A stretch of 61,974 nucleotides of DNA, filler included, from 11 parts of 11 records of this genome joined end to end with filler, not necessarily neighbours in it; one strand, 5' to 3'; shown: positions 381 through 47,000, numbered from the whole stretch's first letter. Made by a program: numbers and translations. The notes: generated by a model not told the origin, from the letters alone.

Positions 381-2049
381 CTACGCTTGAAGGTAGCATG
401 CGTCGGATGGTGAGCCTGTGGGGGGGAGTAGTGGGTATGTAGTGCTCGGAGCTAACCCTAACTCGACAACTTGATTTGTACGCTGTTGCTGTTGTTGCAG
501 CAAAGCACACTCAGAATTGTTATTTACGACCAAGGCGTTTGGCCTCAGCGGCTGTGTGAGTGGAGTCCCGTAGAATAGCGCCAGAATATACCGGGTGCCA
601 CTGCTTATGGGGAAGCCGCCGTGCAGTAGCTTTCCCGGATGCATCAGGCAGTCTCCCTGGTCTATTGGCACCACGAATTGCCTGGGCATGTTTTTAGTCT
701 CCAGATCGCGTGTATTAAGCTCGTTGCGGCTGCCCCCACAAGGTGACCGCTCGGCCCCACCGTCGCAAACCTGTAAACATAGCACCCTCCATCCTCAAAG
801 TCGGTTGGACAGCTATTCCGGGCTCAGTACTGGGCCCGTGCGCACTGGGCACCTGAGCAGCAGGTTGGCGGTGAGCATGCTGCCATCCCTGTGAGTGACC
901 AGCCCTGTCCTCTCTCCACCAACGTACCTGCCACCAGTCCGACCGGTCGGCCGGCTGCACAACCGCTTGACGAACGCCCGCTGGAGCTGGATCTGGACAG
1001 TGGGCGGAGTCATTGCGACCAAATGCGGGTCGATGCAGTCTTGAACTAACTGGAGCAGCTGGCTCAACTCTTTGCTCTGCAGCAATTCGTGATGCGTGAG
1101 CACGCCGCAGTTGCACAGGGGGCAGTCCTGCAGCCCTGCTCGTGCCCGGCGGCCCACCGACCGGGCACCACGTCGCAGTCGATTAAGTTGACCTGGTACT
1201 CTGGCAGCCCGTCCACAGGCTCAACCTTACCTGCGAGAGCCATCACAGCTCTCCAGCACGCGCTGGTCCACCGTCCTGCCAATCTGACTGGGTGGCGCAC
1301 AATGTCACGATCCGCGCGCACTGCTCCGGCGACAGAATCCGGCGGGCTACGGCCACTCCGGGCTTCACCTACGGACGGGTCAGGACCTCTCAGCACGGGC
1401 CCTACCATCTCCAGCACCCCGGTTGAGCCCTGAGCCTCCGGCCGCTCATTATACGCGGCCACCAGCTCCTTGGCCACAGGGTCGTGCCGCCGTGTCCGCC
1501 TGGGCACTTCTCTGCCCGGTCGGTTGAGCAAGCCCCAGCGGCGGGGCCACATCAGCCGGCGGCAGGTCTCCCAGCTCTCGGGCGGCAGCGACTCGTCGCT
1601 CGACACCGCCAGGCCCTCAGTCGACCGGCTCAGCAGAGCGACCCACGCGCCGAATATGGCAGGCACGTGCTGGCTGCCCCCCGCCGGTGACCGACCAGTC
1701 GGCCGCCGGTCACCGTAGCACGTCCTTGCCCTCGAGCATCTCCTCCAGCACCAGCACATCCGCTGGGCATAAGCCTGGCCCCAGCGGCTGGTGCCAGCCC
1801 CGACCGGGCCAGTTCCACCTTCCAGGAGCAGCTCCACTGCCTTGGCCGCCTCCGGGTGCTTCCGGGTGGTGTCCGCGCCAATCGCGGCCACGAGCGGCAG
1901 GTCGACTTTTCCCCGCCGGATCTGCCTCACCAGCTCAGCAGCCAGCCCAGGCGGCGGTCGGGCACCCGCCGATGCGTGTGCCACGGGATGGAGTGCACGC
2001 AGTTTGCCGTCAGGCTCGGACGCCCGAGCTGGCCGTCCGGAGCCTGCAT
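381..2049 (-). CDS. 2OG-Fe(II) oxygenase superfamily protein (prolyl/lysyl-hydroxylase-like), multi-exon
   Basis: C-terminal HPGKLLHGGFPISSGTRYILALF matches the distal His...Arg 2OG-binding strand. Upstream segments EPVDGLPEYQVNL and LQRAFVKR lie in different frames joined by short GT-AG introns. The ATG at 2049 is inferred. Confidence 0.65.
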
Positions 2050-2133
2050 CGCCGCACCGCCAGCACCACCAGCACCCGCGACGGAAGCAACGTTAACGGA
2101 AAAGGCAACTCGGGCACGAAGACCCAGGTCGCC

Positions 2134-3087
2134 ATGGATCCGGAGGACGTGTTGGCACCTGACATCACCTTCAGGCGGGTCTCCGCCTTCCCGGAGCTCC
2201 GGGCCGCCAAGAAAAAGACCACTCTGCACACTCTAACCAAGGAGCAGCCGCGCATCCCCACGGTCATCCACATGTACGACTCCTGCTGAGGCGGGTGTCG
2301 GCCGTGCGCCCGAGCGGTAGCGAACTGGGCGAACGGCGGATACGGCGGACGCGTCAGGTTTCTGATGCTCTGCGTGGAGACGGGCAAAGATGGGCTCCGC
2401 ACAGCCACCGACTTCGGCCGGGGGTTCGAGCTGCCACCCGAAGTAGTCAATGGGTACATCGACCAGCAGTGGGAGCTACCGGGGTACGGCCAGCTCGGCT
2501 GTGGTGGCTTCATCGTGCTCGGCTTATACGGCGAGTTCGTCACTAATCGGAGCGTGCCGGCCTATCTAAAGAAGGGCGAAGAGGCATTCACCGCCGTCGA
2601 AAAGATACTGAGCCACCTCGGGATTAATCGGGAATCGGCTGGCGCCGGCGCGCCGCCTGCAGCTGTCCCCGAGTCCAAGTCCGAAGAGCTGGCCCTGCGG
2701 CTGGGCCCTGTCGGTCATGAGCAGATGGATCAAGAACATGCTGGACTCGAGCTCGCGGTCAATGCCCTGCAGCAACAGCACAGCCTCGCAACTCTCTGTC
2801 ATCTGCGGGACCTCTGGGCCGAGCATTCGCAGCACGAAGAGGCGCTTTTTGAGCAGAACTCTTTCGGTGGCAATCGGGGGTCTGGAGGGCTCTCTGCCAC
2901 TGCGTCTCACTGCCAACACCATCGTGCTATCCTCGAGAGCTTGCAGCGTGCATCGACTCTTGCAATCCCTGGGAGCCTGCAGGGGAAGTCCGACTCAGTG
3001 CCCCAGGATACGGTGCGAGAGATCGTGGCTGAGATCCAAAGGCACGGCGACATCTACGACAGTGCCTACGCTGGAAAACTAGCATAG
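2134..3087 (+). CDS. Selenoprotein: thioredoxin-like domain (CUGGCRPC) fused to a hemerythrin domain, 317 aa, Sec at codon 52 (TGA 2287-2289)
   Basis: ORFs 1687-2289 and 2365-3087 are in the same frame, separated only by one TGA. Read-through gives VIHMYDSC-U-GGCRPCARAVANWANGGYGGRVRFLMLCVE. Hemerythrin ligand pattern: DQEH, HSQHE, HCQHH, HGDIYD. SECIS downstream. Confidence 0.85.
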
Positions 3088-3146
3088 TGCAAGCCCTCGG
3101 TATTGCACACACAAGCTCCAGCTCTTAGATCCCCCTGTGAACAATG

Positions 3147-3234
3147 TGCCTGGAGTGCAGTATTATGACCGCGTCGCGGATCAGACCACTATGGTACCCG
3201 CGAAGTGTGAACCTCCAACTGCACCCACGTGGCA
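3147..3234 (+). promoter_or_regulatory. Eukaryotic SECIS element (type II-like)
   Basis: Helix I GTGCAGT(3155-3161)/ACTGCAC(3218-3224). Core ATGAC(3165-3169)/TGAA(3208-3211). Helix II CGCGTCGCGG/CCGCGAAGTG. Apical mini-stem ACCA/TGGT. Confidence 0.85.
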
Positions 3235-3605
3235 TTGGCATATAGGCTAGGGATTGAGATATTCATATTTTCGGACTTATTCTTGAAATTGACATGAGCG
3301 CTACGTACAAATTAATTCATGTACAGAAAATAAAAAGCAGCAAGCTTTGCTGGTGATCTGTACAGGTCCTAGATGCACTATGTTGATACAATCGCGTAGG
3401 TTGCAAACTAGTAGGTTGCAAGCAATCTTGAGTTCATTTGAAATCTATTTGAAATCTTGAACACTGATCTAATCACGTTCTTACAATCATGTACACTAGA
3501 TATCTCGACCTCTCCGGATAATGTCATTACCGAAATCCAATTCAGTAGGTTCCAAAATGTATCTCAAATACAGCTCATTTTCTTCGTGAATGATCACACA
3601 AAGGC

Positions 3606-6311
3606 CTAGCTCGTCTTTGTGAGATTGTTCCTTGTGGCAATCGAGGCGGCCGAGATCAGCAGCGCCTTAGTGCGATCCTCCAAATCTCGGGACGTCACCA
3701 CTGGAGTGTCGTTGAAAGCCAGCAGTGCCTGGGCAGCCCGGCGGTGAGAGAGCCAACTCTCATAAGTGTCCACTTCCTCGGCGAGCCTGCAAGCCGCCAA
3801 CGTGAGCTCAATGAGAAGCATTACAGCTCACTTGTTGGTATCAGCCTCGGTCGCGTTGGTCACTTTCGTGTCATTTGCCAGTGGCAGCGCCCGCAGCTTT
3901 GTCAGCACACTCTTGACTTTCTCAATGGACTGAACGGCTTTGTCCAACGCCTGTCCCGCCTGAGCCCAGTACCGCAACTGAGCCCACCTGCGGCCGAGCT
4001 ATGTTCTCAGACAACCGCAGGTCCAGCACAGCAAGCAGCTTCTGCACTGTGCCCTCCTGCGCGTGGTAAGTGCTCTGAGCCGCGTTGGCAGCCTCCTGAG
4101 CCGGCGCGGATCAAATCCAGGGCCAGGATGCACAGAGCACCTCAGTCAGCAGCCACTCATCTGCGAGCTCTATGGCCGCCCCCAGAGCCTCCCGCTCCTC
4201 GGCTGTGCTCACCTCCTCGATCTCAGCGCTCTCAAGCCTATCTCGAGCCGCTGCCATCCGGATCAGTGCTTCGCGCCAGCCGGAACCGACCAAACAGGAA
4301 GGATTCGAGGTGGTTCTGAGCCTCGGACCGAGCCTGGTGCTCTTCGTCCAACTTCTGCCAAAGCTGCCCAAACCAGTCACCAGGACCCCGGCAACCAGCC
4401 ACCGCCAACGTCTCGACACCCGCGGCGAGCTGTTGCTCGGTGGCTAGCACCCCGTCGGTGTTGAGCTGCGTCGAAGCGTTGAACACCCGTCGGGTCCAGC
4501 CAGGGGGGCCGACCTGCAGCCAGCTGCGGCCAGGCACCCGCCAGGCTCACCTTCTTGGCAATCGGGACAAACTGCTGGATTTCGGCCAGAGAGAGCAGCC
4601 CGGACCGATCGAGCTCTATCAGCAGCGAGCAGTCCAAGTCGGCTCGCACACCGTCGGGCTCCAGGATCGAACTTGTCCACCCAAGGTCCGACTCAACCAA
4701 CTCAACTTGTGAGGCGCCCGCAGGCACCGTGACCGCCCGGACGCTCGGCAGCCACGCGCCCTGGCTGATCAGCTCGGACAGCTGGCCGGACTGCGAGAGC
4801 TGGATCGGGTGGGCGGTCAAGTCTACGAGATTCACAGGTCGGATGTTGTAGCCCTTGAGTGCTGCAGCATAGTACGTAGCCCCGAGCGCGGCGGCCTCGT
4901 CGCCGTTCAGGCTGGTCTTGAGCTTTGGCTTGCCGAAGAACTCGCTAAGAGTGCTTTGCACCTTGGGCATCCGCTGAGCGCCTCCGACCATCTCGACAGA
5001 ATGGAGCTCGTCCGCACTAAACTCCGCCAGCGCTGCCTTCACCTGTTGCCCAATCAGCCCACCCCTCAGCCGCCAGCCCACCGGGCCGAGCACGCGATCA
5101 AACAGCGGCTGGGCGGCCTCCTCGAACCTATCGCGCCCGTCAGCCCGGCCGCCGGTCTGGGCAGTTTGCCTGCTCCTGCTGAGCTCAAACCTAAGGTCGA
5201 GCTGGTCTGTCAGCCCCTCCACTGAGACCATGTACTCCTTGTTCGCCGAGAGCACCCGCCGGGCGCGCTCGGCCTCGTGCTGCAGCCGGCACCGGGCCCT
5301 GGTGGTCAGCTTCTCACCGGCCAGCTTCTTTGTGGCCTCATTCACCAAGATCTGACCCGGCACTCAGCTAGACTCAGGGGGCACACGGACCTCGGCCAGC
5401 ACCGCATCAAACGCCCGACCGCCCAGGAACCGGTCGTGCGCCACTGCCTTGACGATCACCTGCAGCCCGTCCAGCAGGGCCGGGGTTGGGCCCAACCTGC
5501 GTGACGGATTTGCGCCGGTCGTCTCTCGTGAGCTCATTCCTAAACCTCACAATGCTCACTTTGGTGCCGCCGCCGCCCATGTCGTAGAACATTACCAGCC
5601 TTGAGCTGTTCCCAAAGTCCTGATCGATCCCGTACCGGAGAGCTACGGCGGCGTGGTCGTTCACCAGAGAGAGGAGTGGCACCCCGGCGATCTGAGCTGC
5701 GTGCACCATCGCGCGGCGCGCCATCTGGCCGAACCAGCCGGGGACCGTCACCACTACCCCATCGGTCTTCCGCTCGCCCTGGTTGAGCGCGATCGAGCTC
5801 ACCGCGTACTGCATCAGCATCCCAGTGGCCACCTCCGGGCTGAGCGTGCTGTTCTCGCCCTCCCCGAGCAGCGGGCTCATTCGGCCCGAATCCGGGCTCA
5901 TAGCCATCCCGGGGTGGCCCTCCCGCGCCTGCCCGCCCAGCTCGACCCCGGCCCGAGGGGCAGGATTGGACCTGCTCGGCCGCGTCGGAGCCGTACCGCA
6001 GCCCGAGGAGGGCGCTGGGGAAGGCGATCGTCCGGGCCGGGTGGCGCGAGAACTGGGCACACGGCTGAGCGCGGGGCGCGGACCGAGGGCACCAGGTTGA
6101 CCGCGTCGTCGCCCCAGACCCGGCGGGGTCCGGCAGGGTGAAAGCCGACTGCCGAGGGTGTCTTGCGCTTGGAGGCCTCGTTGAGCGCCATCTGGACCCC
6201 GTGCCCGTGCCGTCCGACCCCGACCTTGAGGAACGCGCTCCCCAGGTCCAGCCCGACCACCGCCCCGCTCACCACTCCGACCAATGCGGCCAGCACACCC
6301 ACGCGCAGCAT
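3606..6311 (-). CDS. HYOU1: ER Hsp70-family chaperone HYOU1/Grp170, about 10 short introns
   Basis: Signal peptide, then VGLDLGS, LNEASKRKTPSAVGF, VVTVPGWF, FYDMGGG, VGGAQRMPKVQ, LNGDEAAALGA, NHLESFLF. Confidence 0.85.
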
Positions 6312-6407
6312 TGTTGTCTTCCTCGAGCGATCGCCGGCCGCGGGATCGCAGTCGTTCGGTTCCGTTGACTGATGATTTGGCGGTAGCCACGGCGGGCACC
6401 TCTCTGG

Positions 6408-43289: not shown

Positions 43290-44078
43290 CTCCAAGGTCT
43301 CTCCAACATGGGCCCAACCCGAATTATCGGCGAATCGGCGACAGATCGGCGAATAACTTTGCGCACGGGCGGCACGGGAGTCTGTACGGCCATATGATTG
43401 TGTTGCGCGAGTTGCACCCCCCGATCTGCGGCGGCCCACGCCAAAATTACGCCACTTGAGATGCCGGCTGGCATTCTAAAACAGGTCGAACAGGTACGCA
43501 GTCATTAATACCTCGCGTACCTCGGCTCGTACTGCCGTGTTGCTGCACTGATGCGCAACTCAATGCTCAGGCTTCAACGTCAACGAGCTCTCCAGCCTTT
43601 GAATCTCCTGACCGCAGTCTCATCTTCCCTCGCCAAGCTCACCCCAAACGCGGCGCAGCATGGTGAACTTCGGCTCAAGGCTGAGCCGGTGCCCCAAACC
43701 GGCCTGGACCACCGACTATATATGCTACGACCGTCTCAAGGAGCTCATCGCCGGGTTCAGTGCCGGAACGGTGCCCCGCCCCCCGCGCTTAGCTCACCTG
43801 GCCGCAGGGCAAGATGGAGTCGTTCGATGAGCAGCTTGCGGGCTCGCTCGCCAAGGTTGACGAGACCTGTTCAACCCGCGAGACGTATCTCAAAGCCGCC
43901 AAAGAGTGACTCCCCCCCCCCCCCCCCCCACNNNNNNNNNNNNNNNNNNNNNNNNNNNNNNNNNNNNNNNNNNNNTTAATTAATTAANNNNNNNNNNNNN
44001 NNNNNNNNNNNNNNNNNNNNNNNNNNNNNNNTAACTATTATTTTTAAGCTGAAGACTTACACACACTCAAGGGCTAGG

Positions 44079-47000
44079 CTAGCCTTGGTATGAGCCTTGG
44101 CTTAAGGACGACAAAGCTTCAAGAGTCATGGTTGAAATTATGAAAAGTCTCTCATGCGACATACTTGTGAGCACTTGCAACGCTTGTGGAGACATGCTCG
44201 CAAGTGCTTTCAATGCTTCTCTAGACATAGCTTCAAGAGCTGGGTTGTGCGGTGATACGAGTAAGTCCTTGCTAGTCACTTGAGATGCGGCTTGCGGCAT
44301 AGTCTTCCTTCGCTTGCATGCATGCTCACAACGCTCTTGCCAATACTCCTGGGTGGTATTCAGAGACCAATGAAAAAGATAGCGGGCCACCTTATCTTTC
44401 AATAAACGCTCAATAAGCTGATCTGAGGTGGGTGGATCATCTAAGATGACTTGTTGGAGATGTGCTGTAACTCGTGCTTTGAAGGCATGATCATGAGCCA
44501 TGATCTCGCCAATCTGAAAAGTCTGATGAGGAAATCAAAAGGGATCAGTGAGTGACCTGCGTTATGGTTGTGAGTTTGCAAAACTCGGTGAAGCCAATCA
44601 CAACCAATTGGCTCGAGAGCCAGTGCTGCGACTTGGAATTCAATACTTCAATCTGTCAAAAGACATTACACACTTGCGAGCGAGTACACTGGGGCAATCA
44701 GAGCAATTGGTACCAGTTCCTTGATTCGTCCAGTCAATTGCGATTCACAATGACCCACATCGAAGCCACTAGCACGTAATAGCTTGCCAGCTGCACTGTA
44801 GAACCGGCACTCTGGCATCTTAAGCAACACGCCAACCACACAAGAAACCAGTTCCGACAGCTGGGCTGTTCTAGAGACTGGGCAATGAGAAAAAAGCGTC
44901 GCTGCTCCTGCTGCCTCCAGTGCTCCAACAAGAAGCTACAGACAAAAACTGTCAGTGAGGCACAATATTCTTAGCAGTCAGGACTAGGAAAAGCAATCGT
45001 GGCCGGCTAACTCCCACGCAGGAGACAATCCACTGAGATCCAATTTAAGGCCCACTAGACACACTAGCCCTCTCTTTTCAAGTTTGCACCTGTGGCACTG
45101 ACCAAGCATCTGTTGAAGCAACCAGCAAGAGAGAGAGATCCCAGACACGCTTGATTTGATGTTCAGAAATGTAGCCGTCCTGCCCCCACAGTAGTTCAAT
45201 TCACTAGGATTCAATGCGGTGTGTAAAAAAGAGTGGTTATAACAGGTGGCTCCGGGCAGGGAGATTGCTACAATGCCAGTATATGGTAGAGACCTGCAAG
45301 CTACAGTTACTGCCGAGGACTGCTGCTATGCATCGCAGAGTCGCTGGCAATCCTGGCAATTGTTGCCAGTTGTGCGGCTTTGACGGGATTTTATCCATCA
45401 GCACCTAATTTCCACACATTATTTGGTTCTGCAATCAGGGACTCGACTACCTGTGCTATTGTACGTCTCTTGTCAGCCGGGACCAACTCGTACCAGCCAG
45501 CATTCAAAACAGAGGCTGCAAGAAGCAAATTGCAACAAGAGACTTGCAGTGGGCATTGCAGATATGATAGAAGCCGCGAAGTGACCTTACATACAGACCT
45601 TGAGGCCGATAATACAGGAATGGACTCACCAACTCTGATGACAGAGAAGGAAGTTCGGCCTTGACATGTTGCAGCAGCAAGGTCAAATTCTGCTCACTTA
45701 ATCTTAGCTTTGGCACAGCTTGTCCTGGATCGGGATTGGGAAGCAGGATTGGCATTAACGTATCACGTACACCAAGACAGCCATGCATGAGCAGTGCCTT
45801 CCACGCATCAAGGCCAAGTGATGCTACAAGTATGTGATCGTGGAAAGCATATTCGAGCAGGCGAGTCTGCATCTCCTTTGCATCACTTGATGGCCATTGC
45901 AAAAAGCTAGCAACAAATCCATCACGCACGAGATCGAAAAGCTGGCCTGAGTGATCGCTCAGCAAGTCAGCATGACACTGCATCCACACCGGGAGTCAGT
46001 TATCAGGCAGACTAAGTAGCTTGCCTCCAATACACCGGCAACAATTCGCTGGAGCTTCAGTGATGAAGGAAATCCAGCCAAATCGTCATGAGTCGAGGTT
46101 GAGCACAGAGTTACAAATTTTCCGAGCCCCTGATCAGATTTTGTGAGACTCGAGTCGCAATATTTGCAGACACTTACCATTAACGAATCTGGATCGTCTC
46201 GAAACTGTCCACCCCGTACACGATCCTGCAACAGTCCACAACTCAATTGCTGGAGTTTGTTCGAATCAGGCACATTCGATCCCAGGACCAACATACACCC
46301 AATGTCTGCAAGAACTCCTGCAGCAAAAGGCTGAGCGCAAGTTATCCAGCTGTCGATGACTTACCGCAGATCTTTGGGAACTTAGCCAGGACTTCAGCGC
46401 TCATGAGTGAGTTGACCGGGCAGCCAGATCTCACCGCAATCGCAGTCATGTCGATTGCTGAGATTACAGTTGACAGTAGTGTATCACCATGCTGCGAGAT
46501 CCAGATGCCCTTGCTATTCACTAGAGCCTTCAGGTGCCCAACATAAAACCGCACCCAGCACAGTTTGTCCTCAAACTGATTGCAAGACTTGGAGTCCAGC
46601 AGAGCCTGGACCGATAGTTTGAGCGATTTCGAGATGCACTGGCAAGTCTCTCCGGAAGCAATCTGACCAGCAGTCACAGGATCTTGAGCTGCACAGGTGC
46701 CGATGGACACTAGAGCCTTCCAGACCCCATTGGCCCCCTTGGTGTTCGCATTCTTTAGGGCCAACTCAGCACAGTGCACCAGGGAACAACACCACCGCTT
46801 GAGGCAAGTAGACTCGTTGTCAGAGGGTTTAGCACCTTGCTCACGCCAGCTCTTGATGCGTGCAGAAATACAACCGATGGCTCTTTTCAGCGCATGACCA
46901 CAACTTTCTACAGCGCGGGACCATATCTGACCGCATTCGTCCTGGTGCAAACGCTGGTCATCTCTGCAGTTGGAGAACTGGTACAGTGCCAGAACAGCAT

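What the first reader, a model, noticed from the sequence alone, without database searches (positions are those of the whole stretch)
2134..3087. Hidden selenoprotein: CUGGCRPC thioredoxin-like domain fused to hemerythrin
Seen: two ORFs that the track splits are one frame interrupted only by TGA 2287-2289. The codon follows a beta-strand (TVIHMYDS) and precedes a helix, where Trx-fold redox motifs lie. It creates an unusual cluster of vicinal Cys-Sec, UxxC and an overlapping CxxC. A further Cys lies in GQLGCGGFIV. The C-terminus has all hemerythrin di-iron ligands (H, HxxxE, HxxxH, HxxxxD). Known: Sec occupies redox-active positions, and hemerythrins bind O2/NO/Fe. Inference: a Sec-dependent oxidoreductase coupled to a di-iron O2/iron sensor, or recycling met-hemerythrin. 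Marine algal selenoproteomes are rich and a related family may already be catalogued; I cannot check that here.
Basis: partly seen in the sequence, partly recalled or inferred. Interest (0 to 1): 0.92.

Follow-up and report, generated by a model that had tools for sequence, protein, structure and literature searches.

The report
Algal selenoprotein: thioredoxin-fold plus hemerythrin
The stop-like TGA is almost certainly a selenocysteine codon in one gene that joins a thioredoxin-type redox domain to an oxygen-binding di-iron hemerythrin domain. This marine-algal family appears to be catalogued already, is cut short in most public protein sets, and has no tested function.

Summary
Window 2134-3087 (+) is one 317-codon frame with a single in-frame TGA at 2287-2289.

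Evidence that the TGA is decoded as selenocysteine:
- 49 of 50 related metagenome/metatranscriptome loci carry TGA at the aligned codon, followed by GGCxPC. None carries a Cys codon.
- Both sides of the TGA evolve like coding sequence.
- 6 of 34 homologous transcripts also end in TGA, so the codon is recoded by context and not reassigned.
- A poly-A RNA contig at least 99% identical to the window crosses the TGA without a gap.
- A type-2 SECIS-like hairpin lies at 3155-3224. Rfam and my own covariance model do not detect it.

Structure: the AlphaFold model (pLDDT 86.5) has a TlpA/ResA-like thioredoxin fold, with Sec52 in the place of the attacking Cys of CxxC. It also has a classic hemerythrin four-helix bundle with all seven iron ligands.

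The vicinal Cys51 is not conserved. H46, U52, C55, C58 and C123 are invariant.

Jiang et al. 2020 state that the algal "TlpA" selenoprotein carries a hemerythrin domain, so this is a new member of a known kind. Its function (a selenol/thiol couple working with the di-iron site) is inferred, not shown.

The parts
2134..3087 (+). Single-exon coding sequence of the selenoprotein: 317 codons including Sec52, then stop TAG at 3085-3087
   Evidence: Searches give the frame. The start Met aligns with the start of the homologous transcripts (M-[ND]-P-E-D), and L001 has an upstream in-frame stop. The protein is colinear with the transcript-derived homologues. RNA contigs cover 2133-2431 and 2868-3287 without gaps.
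2287..2289 (+). TGA read as selenocysteine (U52)
   Evidence: 49 of 50 related loci have TGA here and 0 have a Cys codon. RNA contig X1 (2143-2431) bridges it and no base change is listed at the codon. In a profile alignment it aligns with the first Cys of WCGPC in thioredoxin-fold structures.
2134..2628 (+). N-terminal TlpA/ResA/DsbE-like thioredoxin-fold domain (residues 1-165)
   Evidence: AlphaFold model. VIA-align: DsbE 3gl3 Z 14.0, deiodinase-3 4tr4 Z 13.8, ResA 2f9s Z 12.5, TlpA 1jfu Z 11.4. Foldseek: ResA E 7.6e-4. Profile against PDB sequences: 2lja E 0.0022. No Pfam family at E <= 1 for this part of the window protein.
2269..2307 (+). Active-site stretch H46-x5-U52-G-G-C55-R-P57-C58
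   Evidence: H46, U52, G53, G54, C55, P57, C58 and A59 are invariant in 31 of 31 aligned sequences. C51 is not conserved.
2488..2511 (+). GQLGCGGF loop and strand, with invariant C123 (2500-2502)
   Evidence: Invariant in 31 of 31 sequences. C123 aligns with the residue just before the cis-Pro of a solved thiol-disulfide oxidoreductase. The Pro position itself holds G or Q.
2629..2703 (+). Low-complexity linker (residues 166-190)
   Evidence: pLDDT falls to about 52 in this block. Length and sequence vary among homologues.
2704..3084 (+). Hemerythrin four-helix-bundle domain (residues 191-317) with ligands H202, H231, E235, H259, H263, H304, D309
   Evidence: Helices 196-215, 218-242, 255-276 and 291-312. 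VIA-align: DcrH-Hr 4xpw Z 14.2, 2avk Z 14.0, hemerythrin 1hmd Z 13.9 (rmsd 2.2, 107 aligned). Profile against PDB: myohemerythrin E 8.3e-7. Pfam PF01814 scores 15.6 bits in the window, below the 25.3 cutoff. It passes the cutoff in homologues L009 (26.2) and L020 (26.3).
3155..3224 (+). Candidate type-2 SECIS element in the 3'UTR: helix I 3155-3161 with 3218-3224, AUGA 3165-3168, helix II, A-rich bulge, mini-stem, GA 3209-3210
   Evidence: It is the only hit of my own descriptor scan in 3088-3700. Hits of equal or better score number 3 in about 124 kb of both strands. The MFE fold has the SECIS layout, z -3.05, with 1 of 200 shuffles as stable. Four of five homologue 3'UTRs folded show the same layout and similar AUGA-GA spacing. 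Helix II keeps pairing through two-sided changes. RNA contig X2 covers it, and its G3173T allele turns a G.A mismatch into U-A. Not detected by Rfam or by my model R1.

Best explanation
This is a genuine single-exon eukaryotic selenoprotein gene, probably from a marine alga. The closest named relative is an Emiliania huxleyi hypothetical protein.

Decoding. UGA at 2287-2289 is decoded as selenocysteine, directed by a type-2 SECIS hairpin about 70-140 nt past the TAG stop.

Domains. Residues 1-165 form a TlpA/ResA-like thioredoxin fold. Sec52 takes the place of the attacking Cys and C55 that of the resolving Cys of the CxxC motif. Two further invariant cysteines (C58, one helical turn on, and C123 in the loop that normally holds the cis-Pro) and H46 are inferred from sequence and alignment to lie near the active site. 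A flexible linker joins this domain to a classic hemerythrin four-helix bundle with all seven di-iron ligands.

Likely mechanism (inferred, about 35%). The selenol/thiol couple passes reducing equivalents to the di-iron site. It would either reduce the (hydro)peroxide formed when O2 or H2O2 binds, or return the met (diferric) form to the active diferrous form. The resulting selenenylsulfide would then be re-reduced by cellular thioredoxin or glutathione. The protein would then be an oxygen/peroxide-responsive oxidoreductase and not a plain disulfide reductase.

Shown here: the gene, conservation of the Sec codon, the two folds and the ligands. Inferred: Sec insertion itself, cytosolic location (no obvious signal peptide) and any coupling between the domains.
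For: Frame and motif.

Conservation of the codon:
- 49 of 50 related loci carry TGA followed by GGCxPC at the aligned codon. None carries a Cys codon.
- Codon-position differences upstream of TGA (for L001, 8/5/22 at positions 1/2/3) mirror those downstream (26/25/66) in all 8 close homologues tested.
- TGA also ends the ORF in 6 of 34 transcript-like homologues, so it is both sense and stop within one mRNA.

RNA. Contigs at least 99% identical to the window, from poly-A or oligo-dT libraries of four studies, cover 2133-2431 (bridging the TGA) and 2868-3287 (stop plus SECIS) without gaps.

SECIS candidate.

Folds.

Hemerythrin. The profile hits myohemerythrin at E 8.3e-7 and DcrH-Hr at 7e-4. 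The seven ligands are invariant in 15 of 15 sequences.

Active site. U52/C55 align with the CxxC of solved thioredoxin-fold proteins. The invariant residues are listed.

Literature. The algal TlpA selenoprotein is stated to carry a hemerythrin domain (PMC7539508, passages read).
Against: - No direct evidence of selenium in the protein.
- Rfam finds no SECIS in the window. It also finds none in 20 homologous transcripts, so that negative carries little weight.
- My covariance model, built from seven homologue SECIS elements, does not find the window's candidate even with filters off.
- The candidate's apical bulge (AUCAG) lacks the usual consecutive AA.
- In the covariation count, one slid control (-3) reached a similar covariation score.
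- Pfam hemerythrin is below threshold in the window protein itself, and no Pfam thioredoxin-like family is hit.
- No intact Cys-form homologue was found.
- The laid RNA evidence consists of assembled contigs. None was laid on 2432-2867, and RNA libraries can contain DNA.
- Nothing tested here bears on the proposed electron flow between the domains.
Confidence: 0.85

Rival explanations
1. Same gene and domains, but the protein is a sensor and not an enzyme. The hemerythrin domain reports O2, iron or NO, as in DcrH or FBXL5. It would gate the thioredoxin-fold domain, which acts on a separate partner protein by selenol-disulfide exchange.
For: The closest structural and sequence matches of the C-domain include the sensor domain DcrH-Hr. 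TlpA/ResA-type proteins act on specific partner proteins (titles of the structures hit, such as TlpA-ScoI 4txo). The same Sec module is also found fused to other C-terminal parts, as expected of a catalytic module with exchangeable regulatory partners.
Against: No partner or output is known. Selenocysteine is more usual in catalytic sites than in signalling sites (general knowledge). Nothing tested here separates this reading from the best explanation.
Confidence: 0.3
2. The invariant U52-x2-C55-x2-C58 plus C123 (and H46) is a metal or iron-sulfur binding site with a selenium ligand, not a redox dithiol. The N-domain would then be an electron-transfer or metal-handling centre next to the di-iron site, following the logic of rubrerythrin or Sco.
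For: Four invariant Cys/Sec residues and one His occur in 31 of 31 sequences. The CxxCxxC spacing is that of ferredoxin-type motifs (recalled). Copper-binding Sco proteins are among the fold matches. C123 replaces the neighbour of the cis-Pro next to the active site.
Against: No metal-binding family matched by sequence. The U52/C55 alignment with a standard CxxC is explained fully by redox chemistry.
Confidence: 0.12
3. The TGA is a true stop. There would be a short upstream ORF of 51 codons, and a separate protein would start downstream.
For: Table 11 splits the frame. Nearly all public protein predictions of the family start at a Met about nine residues after the TGA.
Against: - The window has no Met at that position. 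Its first downstream ATG, at 2365, would remove the active site, helix 1 and part of the next strand of the fold.
- The stretch upstream of the TGA is conserved as protein, with a third-position excess of changes.
- TGA is kept in 49 of 50 loci.
- The fold is complete only when the frame is read through.
Confidence: 0.03
4. TGA is reassigned genome-wide (for example to Trp or Cys) in these organisms, or the TGA is an assembly error or a pseudogene lesion.
For: Four of the 150 best database representatives show W at this column.
Against: - TGA ends the ORF in 6 of 34 homologous transcripts.
- Trp at the attacking position of a CxxC site makes no chemical sense. It is most simply a gene caller reading TGA as Trp.
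- The TGA is present in an independent RNA contig and in 49 loci from many samples.
Confidence: 0.02

Closest known systems
Algal 'TlpA' (thioredoxin-like protein) selenoprotein family of Jiang et al. 2020, The algal selenoproteomes (PMC7539508)
   Same: It is described as a Trx-like-domain selenoprotein family of algae that is about 80% Sec-containing and carries the hemerythrin metal-binding domain (passages read). E. huxleyi, which they analysed, has a homologue of this gene (P0047; L012/L013).
   Different: I could not compare sequences. Their family pages and supplements were not available, so identity with that family is inferred from the description. The paper gives one sentence and no functional analysis. 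It does not mention the invariant C58/C123/H46 or the alternative C-terminal modules.
Bacterial TlpA / ResA / DsbE (CcmG) thiol-disulfide oxidoreductases
   Same: The fold, including the N-terminal extension, matches (Z 11.4-14.0). The redox motif sits at the start of helix 1.
   Different: - Those are periplasmic or membrane-anchored Cys proteins with a cis-Pro loop.
- This one has Sec, no obvious signal or anchor, C123 plus G/Q in place of the cis-Pro, an extra C58, and a fused hemerythrin.
- Sequence similarity is marginal (E 0.002; no Pfam hit).
Hemerythrin / myohemerythrin / DcrH-Hr (PF01814)
   Same: It shares the four-helix bundle (Z about 14), all seven di-iron ligands with classic spacing, and a profile E of 8.3e-7 to myohemerythrin.
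   Different: It is fused behind a selenoprotein domain. A loop of about 12 residues between helices 2 and 3 has low confidence. O2 binding is untested.
Hemerythrin-class glutathione transferases (GSTH) of the green lineage (PMC4138524, passages read)
   Same: A thioredoxin-fold enzyme with a catalytic Cys is joined to a C-terminal hemerythrin domain, the location is apparently cytosolic, and the function is unknown.
   Different: GSTH proteins have a GST fold with a helical GST-C domain, use Cys and are about 500 residues long. No sequence relation was tested or seen here.
Iodothyronine deiodinases (Sec-containing thioredoxin/peroxiredoxin-like fold)
   Same: It is a structural match to the N-domain (4tr4 Z 13.8; 9h48), with Sec in the active site.
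   Different: Identity is only 12-15%, the active-site motif differs, and there is no hemerythrin. This is fold-level resemblance only.
Rubrerythrin and YtfE/RIC di-iron proteins
   Same: The design logic is similar: a di-iron four-helix bundle joined to a small Cys-bearing domain that supplies electrons or handles iron. There is a weak profile hit to YtfE (E 0.017).
   Different: The di-iron ligand sets and partner domains differ. This is an analogy for the mechanism, not a family assignment.

Membership tests
Eukaryotic selenoprotein gene | In-frame UGA conserved at the same codon in homologues | tested here: met
   49 of 50 related loci carry TGA at the aligned codon. L014 showed no motif.
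Eukaryotic selenoprotein gene | Protein-level conservation on both sides of the UGA | tested here: met
   tblastn matches span query residues 1-317. There is a third-position excess of differences both upstream and downstream in 8 of 8 close homologues.
Eukaryotic selenoprotein gene | SECIS element in the 3'UTR (AUGA/GA core, helices I and II, apical A-rich loop) | tested here: inconclusive
   For: the core, both helices and the type-2 layout are present at 3155-3224. Such hits are rare in the window. Helix II covaries with homologues.

Against: there is no consecutive AA in the bulge, no Rfam hit, and no hit with my model R1. Rfam also misses 20 of 20 homologous transcripts.
Eukaryotic selenoprotein gene | UGA is not simply reassigned: it also serves as a stop | tested here: met
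   The terminal stop is TGA in 6 of 34 transcript-like homologues. The window gene itself ends in TAG.
Eukaryotic selenoprotein gene | Cys-containing homologues aligned at the Sec position | tested here: not met
   0 of 49 loci have a Cys codon. Of the 150 best representatives, 5 cover the column. Four show W, and one (P0094) shows C within a degenerate motif. Jiang et al. describe the TlpA family as about 80% Sec-containing. This feature supports the assignment but does not define it.
Eukaryotic selenoprotein gene | Selenium shown in the protein (75Se labelling or mass spectrometry) | not testable with these tools
   This is an experiment.
TlpA/ResA-like thioredoxin-fold oxidoreductases | Thioredoxin fold with the TlpA-type N-terminal extension | tested here: met
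   The model has pLDDT 86.5. Z is 11.4-14.0 to DsbE, ResA and TlpA over residues 3-165. Foldseek probability is 1.0.
TlpA/ResA-like thioredoxin-fold oxidoreductases | CxxC-type motif at the N-terminus of helix 1 | tested here: met
   U52-G-G-C55 aligns with the CGPC of solved proteins. The helix starts at residue 55.
TlpA/ResA-like thioredoxin-fold oxidoreductases | cis-Pro loop facing the active site | tested here: not met
   In the profile alignment to 2lja, the Pro position holds G/Q124, preceded by the invariant C123. P116, seven residues upstream, is invariant, but it is not at the aligned position.
TlpA/ResA-like thioredoxin-fold oxidoreductases | Sequence-family threshold (Pfam AhpC-TSA / Redoxin / Thioredoxin) | tested here: not met
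   The window protein has no such hit at E <= 1. Homologue L016 reaches only 16.1 and 14.8 bits against cutoffs of 26 and 26.6.
Hemerythrin (PF01814, O2-binding type) | Seven di-iron ligands: H, HxxxE, HxxxH, HxxxxD | tested here: met
   H202, H231, E235, H259, H263, H304 and D309 are present and invariant in 15 of 15 sequences.
Hemerythrin (PF01814, O2-binding type) | Four-helix bundle matching solved hemerythrins | tested here: met
   4xpw Z 14.2, 2avk Z 14.0, 1hmd Z 13.9 with rmsd 2.2 over 107 of 113 residues. The tool notes that helical bundles can reach Z of about 13 by chance, so this rests jointly on the ligands and on the sequence profile.
Hemerythrin (PF01814, O2-binding type) | Pfam gathering threshold | tested here: inconclusive
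   The window scores 15.6 bits against a cutoff of 25.3. Of 10 homologues scanned, L009 (26.2) and L020 (26.3) pass, 6 are below the cutoff and 2 have no hit. The family profile against PDB gives myohemerythrin at E 8.3e-7.
Hemerythrin (PF01814, O2-binding type) | Reversible O2 binding at a diferrous site | not testable with these tools
   This needs spectroscopy on purified protein.
Algal TlpA selenoprotein family (Jiang et al. 2020) | Sec-containing Trx-like domain together with a hemerythrin metal-binding domain in algae | tested here: met
   The architecture shown here matches the paper's description.
Algal TlpA selenoprotein family (Jiang et al. 2020) | Sequence identity or homology with the family's deposited members | not testable with these tools

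The most novel reading that the evidence does not exclude
The invariant H46/U52/C55/C58/C123 cluster beside the thioredoxin active site may supply two redox couples, or a selenium-ligated metal centre. It would feed electrons straight into the fused hemerythrin. The protein would then be a self-contained selenol/thiol-driven O2 or H2O2 reductase. That would be a hemerythrin-based counterpart of rubrerythrin and a new enzyme class, widespread and expressed in marine phytoplankton.
Probability: 0.12. Interest if true: 0.75.

Novelty: new member of a known kind. Interest (0 to 1): 0.4.

Why it matters
Annotation. The gene is real and is mis-split by ordinary annotation. Public protein sets hold this family almost only as N-truncated ORFs lacking the active site. 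In one search, 123 of the 150 best representatives start their match at the Met just after Sec. The named E. huxleyi entry has 195 residues. Domain searches therefore see "a hemerythrin-like protein" and miss the selenoenzyme.

Abundance. The family is large: 325 clusters at 50% identity with E <= 1e-10. Near-identical RNA contigs from poly-A or oligo-dT marine metatranscriptome libraries of four studies were laid on the gene. It may therefore be a relevant link between selenium, iron and oxygen physiology in phytoplankton.

Status. No function has been tested. The one printed mention I found is a single sentence. Because the family appears to be catalogued already, this is not a discovery of a new kind.

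Tried and rejected
SECIS detection:
- Rfam found nothing on 1500-4500, on 3088-3300 or on 20 homologous transcripts. Since it misses the canonical-looking homologue elements as well, I give these negatives little weight.
- Covariance model R1, built from seven homologue SECIS elements with flanks, found no hit at the window candidate with default filters or with filters off. Its two hits, at E 7-9, lie elsewhere. On the loci it recovered its own seven training elements plus L012/L013 at E 0.19.
- A broader 13-sequence alignment misaligned the 3' GA, so I built no second model.
- In one search, four of the five homologue 3'UTRs fold into the SECIS layout, but their z-scores are not significant (0.35 to -1.33). 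L012's MFE fold does not show the layout.

Tools that were not available:
- The window's own genome is not held.
- Earlier findings are not open.
- The protein atlas does not accept a read-through protein. I did not resend it in any form.

RNA laying:
- No contig was laid on 2432-2867 or beyond 3287. I draw nothing from that.
- A 34-base piece at 2046-2079 (90-95% alike, with loose ends on both sides) is probably unrelated.

Other:
- SECIS-descriptor hits at window 44500 (+) and 43623 (-) could not be tied to an ORF with an in-frame TGA.
- I did not run a complex prediction of the two domains. That tool takes table-11 proteins only, and the N-domain needs the read-through.
- Literature searches found no functional study of a Sec-thioredoxin-hemerythrin protein. 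The library lacks most subscription journals, and the supplements of PMC7539508 could not be seen.

Full report
**The observation.** Window 2134-3087 on the + strand reads as one frame of 317 residues ending in TAG. The single interruption is TGA at 2287-2289, codon 52. Under the standard code the same frame appears as two ORFs, 1687..2289 and 2365..3087. The local sequence is TVIHMYDSC-U-GGCRPC. GQLGCGGF with C123 lies further on. The C-terminal third carries H202, H231-x3-E235, H259-x3-H263 and H304-x4-D309.

**Is the TGA decoded? Homologues.** A protein search found 47 relatives. Nearly all begin at one column about nine residues after the TGA, which is the signature of gene callers stopping at an in-frame TGA. 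I therefore fetched DNA. Fifty related loci came from public metagenome and metatranscriptome contigs, and in many the tblastn match spans query residues 1-317.
- In 49 of the 50, the aligned codon is TGA followed by GGCxPC. None has TGT or TGC. L014 showed no motif.
- The Met where the database proteins start is a conserved internal residue (…CAQAM…). The window has Val/Ala there.
- In all 8 close homologues tested, nucleotide differences from the window pile up at third codon positions both upstream of the TGA (L001: 8/5/22) and downstream (26/25/66).
- TGA also terminates the ORF in 6 of 34 transcript-like homologues. It is therefore read in two ways within one mRNA, which argues for Sec recoding and against a reassigned codon.

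**Is the TGA decoded? RNA.** I laid contigs from four marine RNA libraries (oligo-dT, poly-A or cDNA; four studies), each holding at most 0.19 of the sampled words. The pieces on the gene are at least 95% alike, four of five at least 99%.
- One contig covers 2143-2431 and bridges the TGA without a gap. No base change is listed at the codon.
- Another covers 2268-2418.
- Two cover 2868-3119 and 2937-3287, that is, the stop and the 3'UTR.
- No joints were seen.
- The alleles they carry (R60Q, V81M) change residues to ones common in the homologues.
- No contig was laid on 2432-2867. There the colinear protein alignment argues against an intron.

**SECIS.**
- My own descriptor scan finds exactly one candidate in 3088-3700. 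It has AUGA at 3165-3168, GA at 3209-3210, helix I formed by 3155-3161 with 3218-3224, a helix II of about 11 pairs with two mismatches, an A-containing bulge and a mini-stem.
- Hits of equal or better score number 3 in about 124 kb of both strands of the window.
- The minimum-energy fold has the SECIS layout, with z -3.05 and 1 of 200 shuffles as stable.
- Four of five homologue 3'UTRs folded (L001, L002, L003, L007) adopt the same layout. AUGA-GA spacing is 40-43 nt, against 40 in the window.
- With the window aligned to seven of them, helix II is 78% paired against 69±3% in shuffles. Four of eight pairs have two-sided changes. One slid control gave a similar covariation score.
- The RNA allele G3173T turns the G.A mismatch in helix II into a U-A pair.
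- Against: the bulge has no consecutive AA. Rfam sees nothing, although it also sees nothing in 20 homologous transcripts. My covariance model built from seven homologue elements does not find the window's element.
- I rate the SECIS as probable, not proven.

**The protein.** The AlphaFold model, built with 31 aligned sequences, has mean pLDDT 86.5 and pTM 0.71.
- Residues 3-165 match DsbE, ResA, TlpA, Bcp/peroxiredoxins, Sco and the Sec enzyme deiodinase-3, with Z 11-14 and Foldseek probability 1.0.
- A family profile aligns U52-G-G-C55 with the CGPC of solved thioredoxin-fold proteins. It aligns C123 with the residue before their cis-Pro, which here is G/Q.
- Residues 184-317 match DcrH-hemerythrin and hemerythrin with Z of about 14.
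- The C-domain profile hits myohemerythrin at E 8.3e-7. The seven iron ligands are invariant in 15 of 15 sequences.
- Pfam hemerythrin is below threshold in the window (15.6 bits) but passes in L009 and L020.
- Across 31 sequences the invariant residues are H46, U52, G53, G54, C55, P57, C58, A59, W65, P116, G119-G122, C123, G125 and F126.
- The vicinal Cys51 is not conserved. The residue before Sec is G in 30, P in 8, S in 7 and C in 4 of the 49 loci.

**Breadth of the family.** An N-domain profile finds 449 clusters at 50% identity with E <= 0.001, and 325 with E <= 1e-10.
- 123 of the 150 best start their match at the Met after Sec.
- Five cover the Sec column. Four show W, most simply TGA called as Trp. 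One shows C in a degenerate motif with lost hemerythrin ligands.
- The Sec module is also joined to other C-terminal parts, such as Gly/Cys-rich repeats before the hemerythrin, or a Cys-rich motif instead of it.

**How it likely works.** Shown: a Sec-bearing TlpA-like fold fused to a ligand-complete hemerythrin. Inferred:
- Sec52 attacks and C55 resolves.
- The couple exchanges electrons with the di-iron site, either by reducing bound peroxide or by re-reducing the met form, and is recycled by thioredoxin or glutathione. I give this about 35%.
- A sensor reading gets about 30%.
- A Se-ligated metal site formed by U52/C55/C58/C123 gets about 12%.
- A true stop, a reassigned codon or an error together get about 5%.

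**What is known.** Jiang et al. 2020 (PMC7539508; passages read) list an algal "TlpA" thioredoxin-like selenoprotein family. [quoted passage not shown] E. huxleyi, which they analysed, has a homologue. I could not compare sequences with their database or supplements. Seven literature searches found no functional study. Hemerythrin-class GSTs of plants (PMC4138524) are the nearest architectural analogue.

**Verdict.** The gene is a new member of an already catalogued but uncharacterised family. It matters mainly because the family is systematically mis-annotated and its chemistry is open.

Noticed in passing
L016-L019, L022-L028, L029-L030, L034-L036, L039, L046 (whole ORFs): The Sec-thioredoxin module is combined with different C-terminal parts:
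- hemerythrin after an insert of about 200 residues with Gly/Cys-rich repeats;
- hemerythrin with long Ala/Gln/Glu low-complexity inserts;
- or no hemerythrin but a Cys-rich C.C..C.C motif near the C-end.
   Followed up: partly
L003:956-1258, L007:967-1323: Two close homologues carry a further C-terminal domain of about 100-120 residues after the hemerythrin. It has no Pfam match.
   Followed up: no
P0047 (E. huxleyi EMIHUDRAFT_467234), P0002-P0048, P0049-P0192: Public protein predictions of this family are almost all N-truncated at the Met after Sec. Four representatives show Trp at the Sec column, probably from a caller reading TGA as Trp.
   Followed up: partly
L016, L017, L019, L022, L027 N-termini: Several members of one subfamily start MG....(x)C, which looks like an N-acylation signal. 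The rule is recalled and was not tested. The window protein does not have it.
   Followed up: no
window 2312, 2374, 3113, 3173: Near-identical RNA contigs carry four alleles: G2312A (R60Q), G2374A (V81M), A3113G, and G3173T, which improves pairing in the SECIS helix II.
   Followed up: partly
window 44500-44555 (+) and 43575-43623 (-): Two further hits of my SECIS descriptor (scores 20 and 16) have no evident upstream ORF with an in-frame TGA. A run of N lies near 43.9 kb.
   Followed up: partly
window 4377-6399 (-): Long minus-strand ORFs converge on the selenoprotein gene across an AT-rich spacer (3150-3600, GC 0.37-0.42). By eye they resemble an Hsp70-family protein. That resemblance is recalled and untested.
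   Followed up: no
20 family transcripts (L001...L042): Rfam 15 SECIS models return no hit at E <= 10 in any of 20 transcripts that carry a conserved Sec codon. Several of these have canonical AUGA...AAA...GA hairpins.
   Followed up: partly
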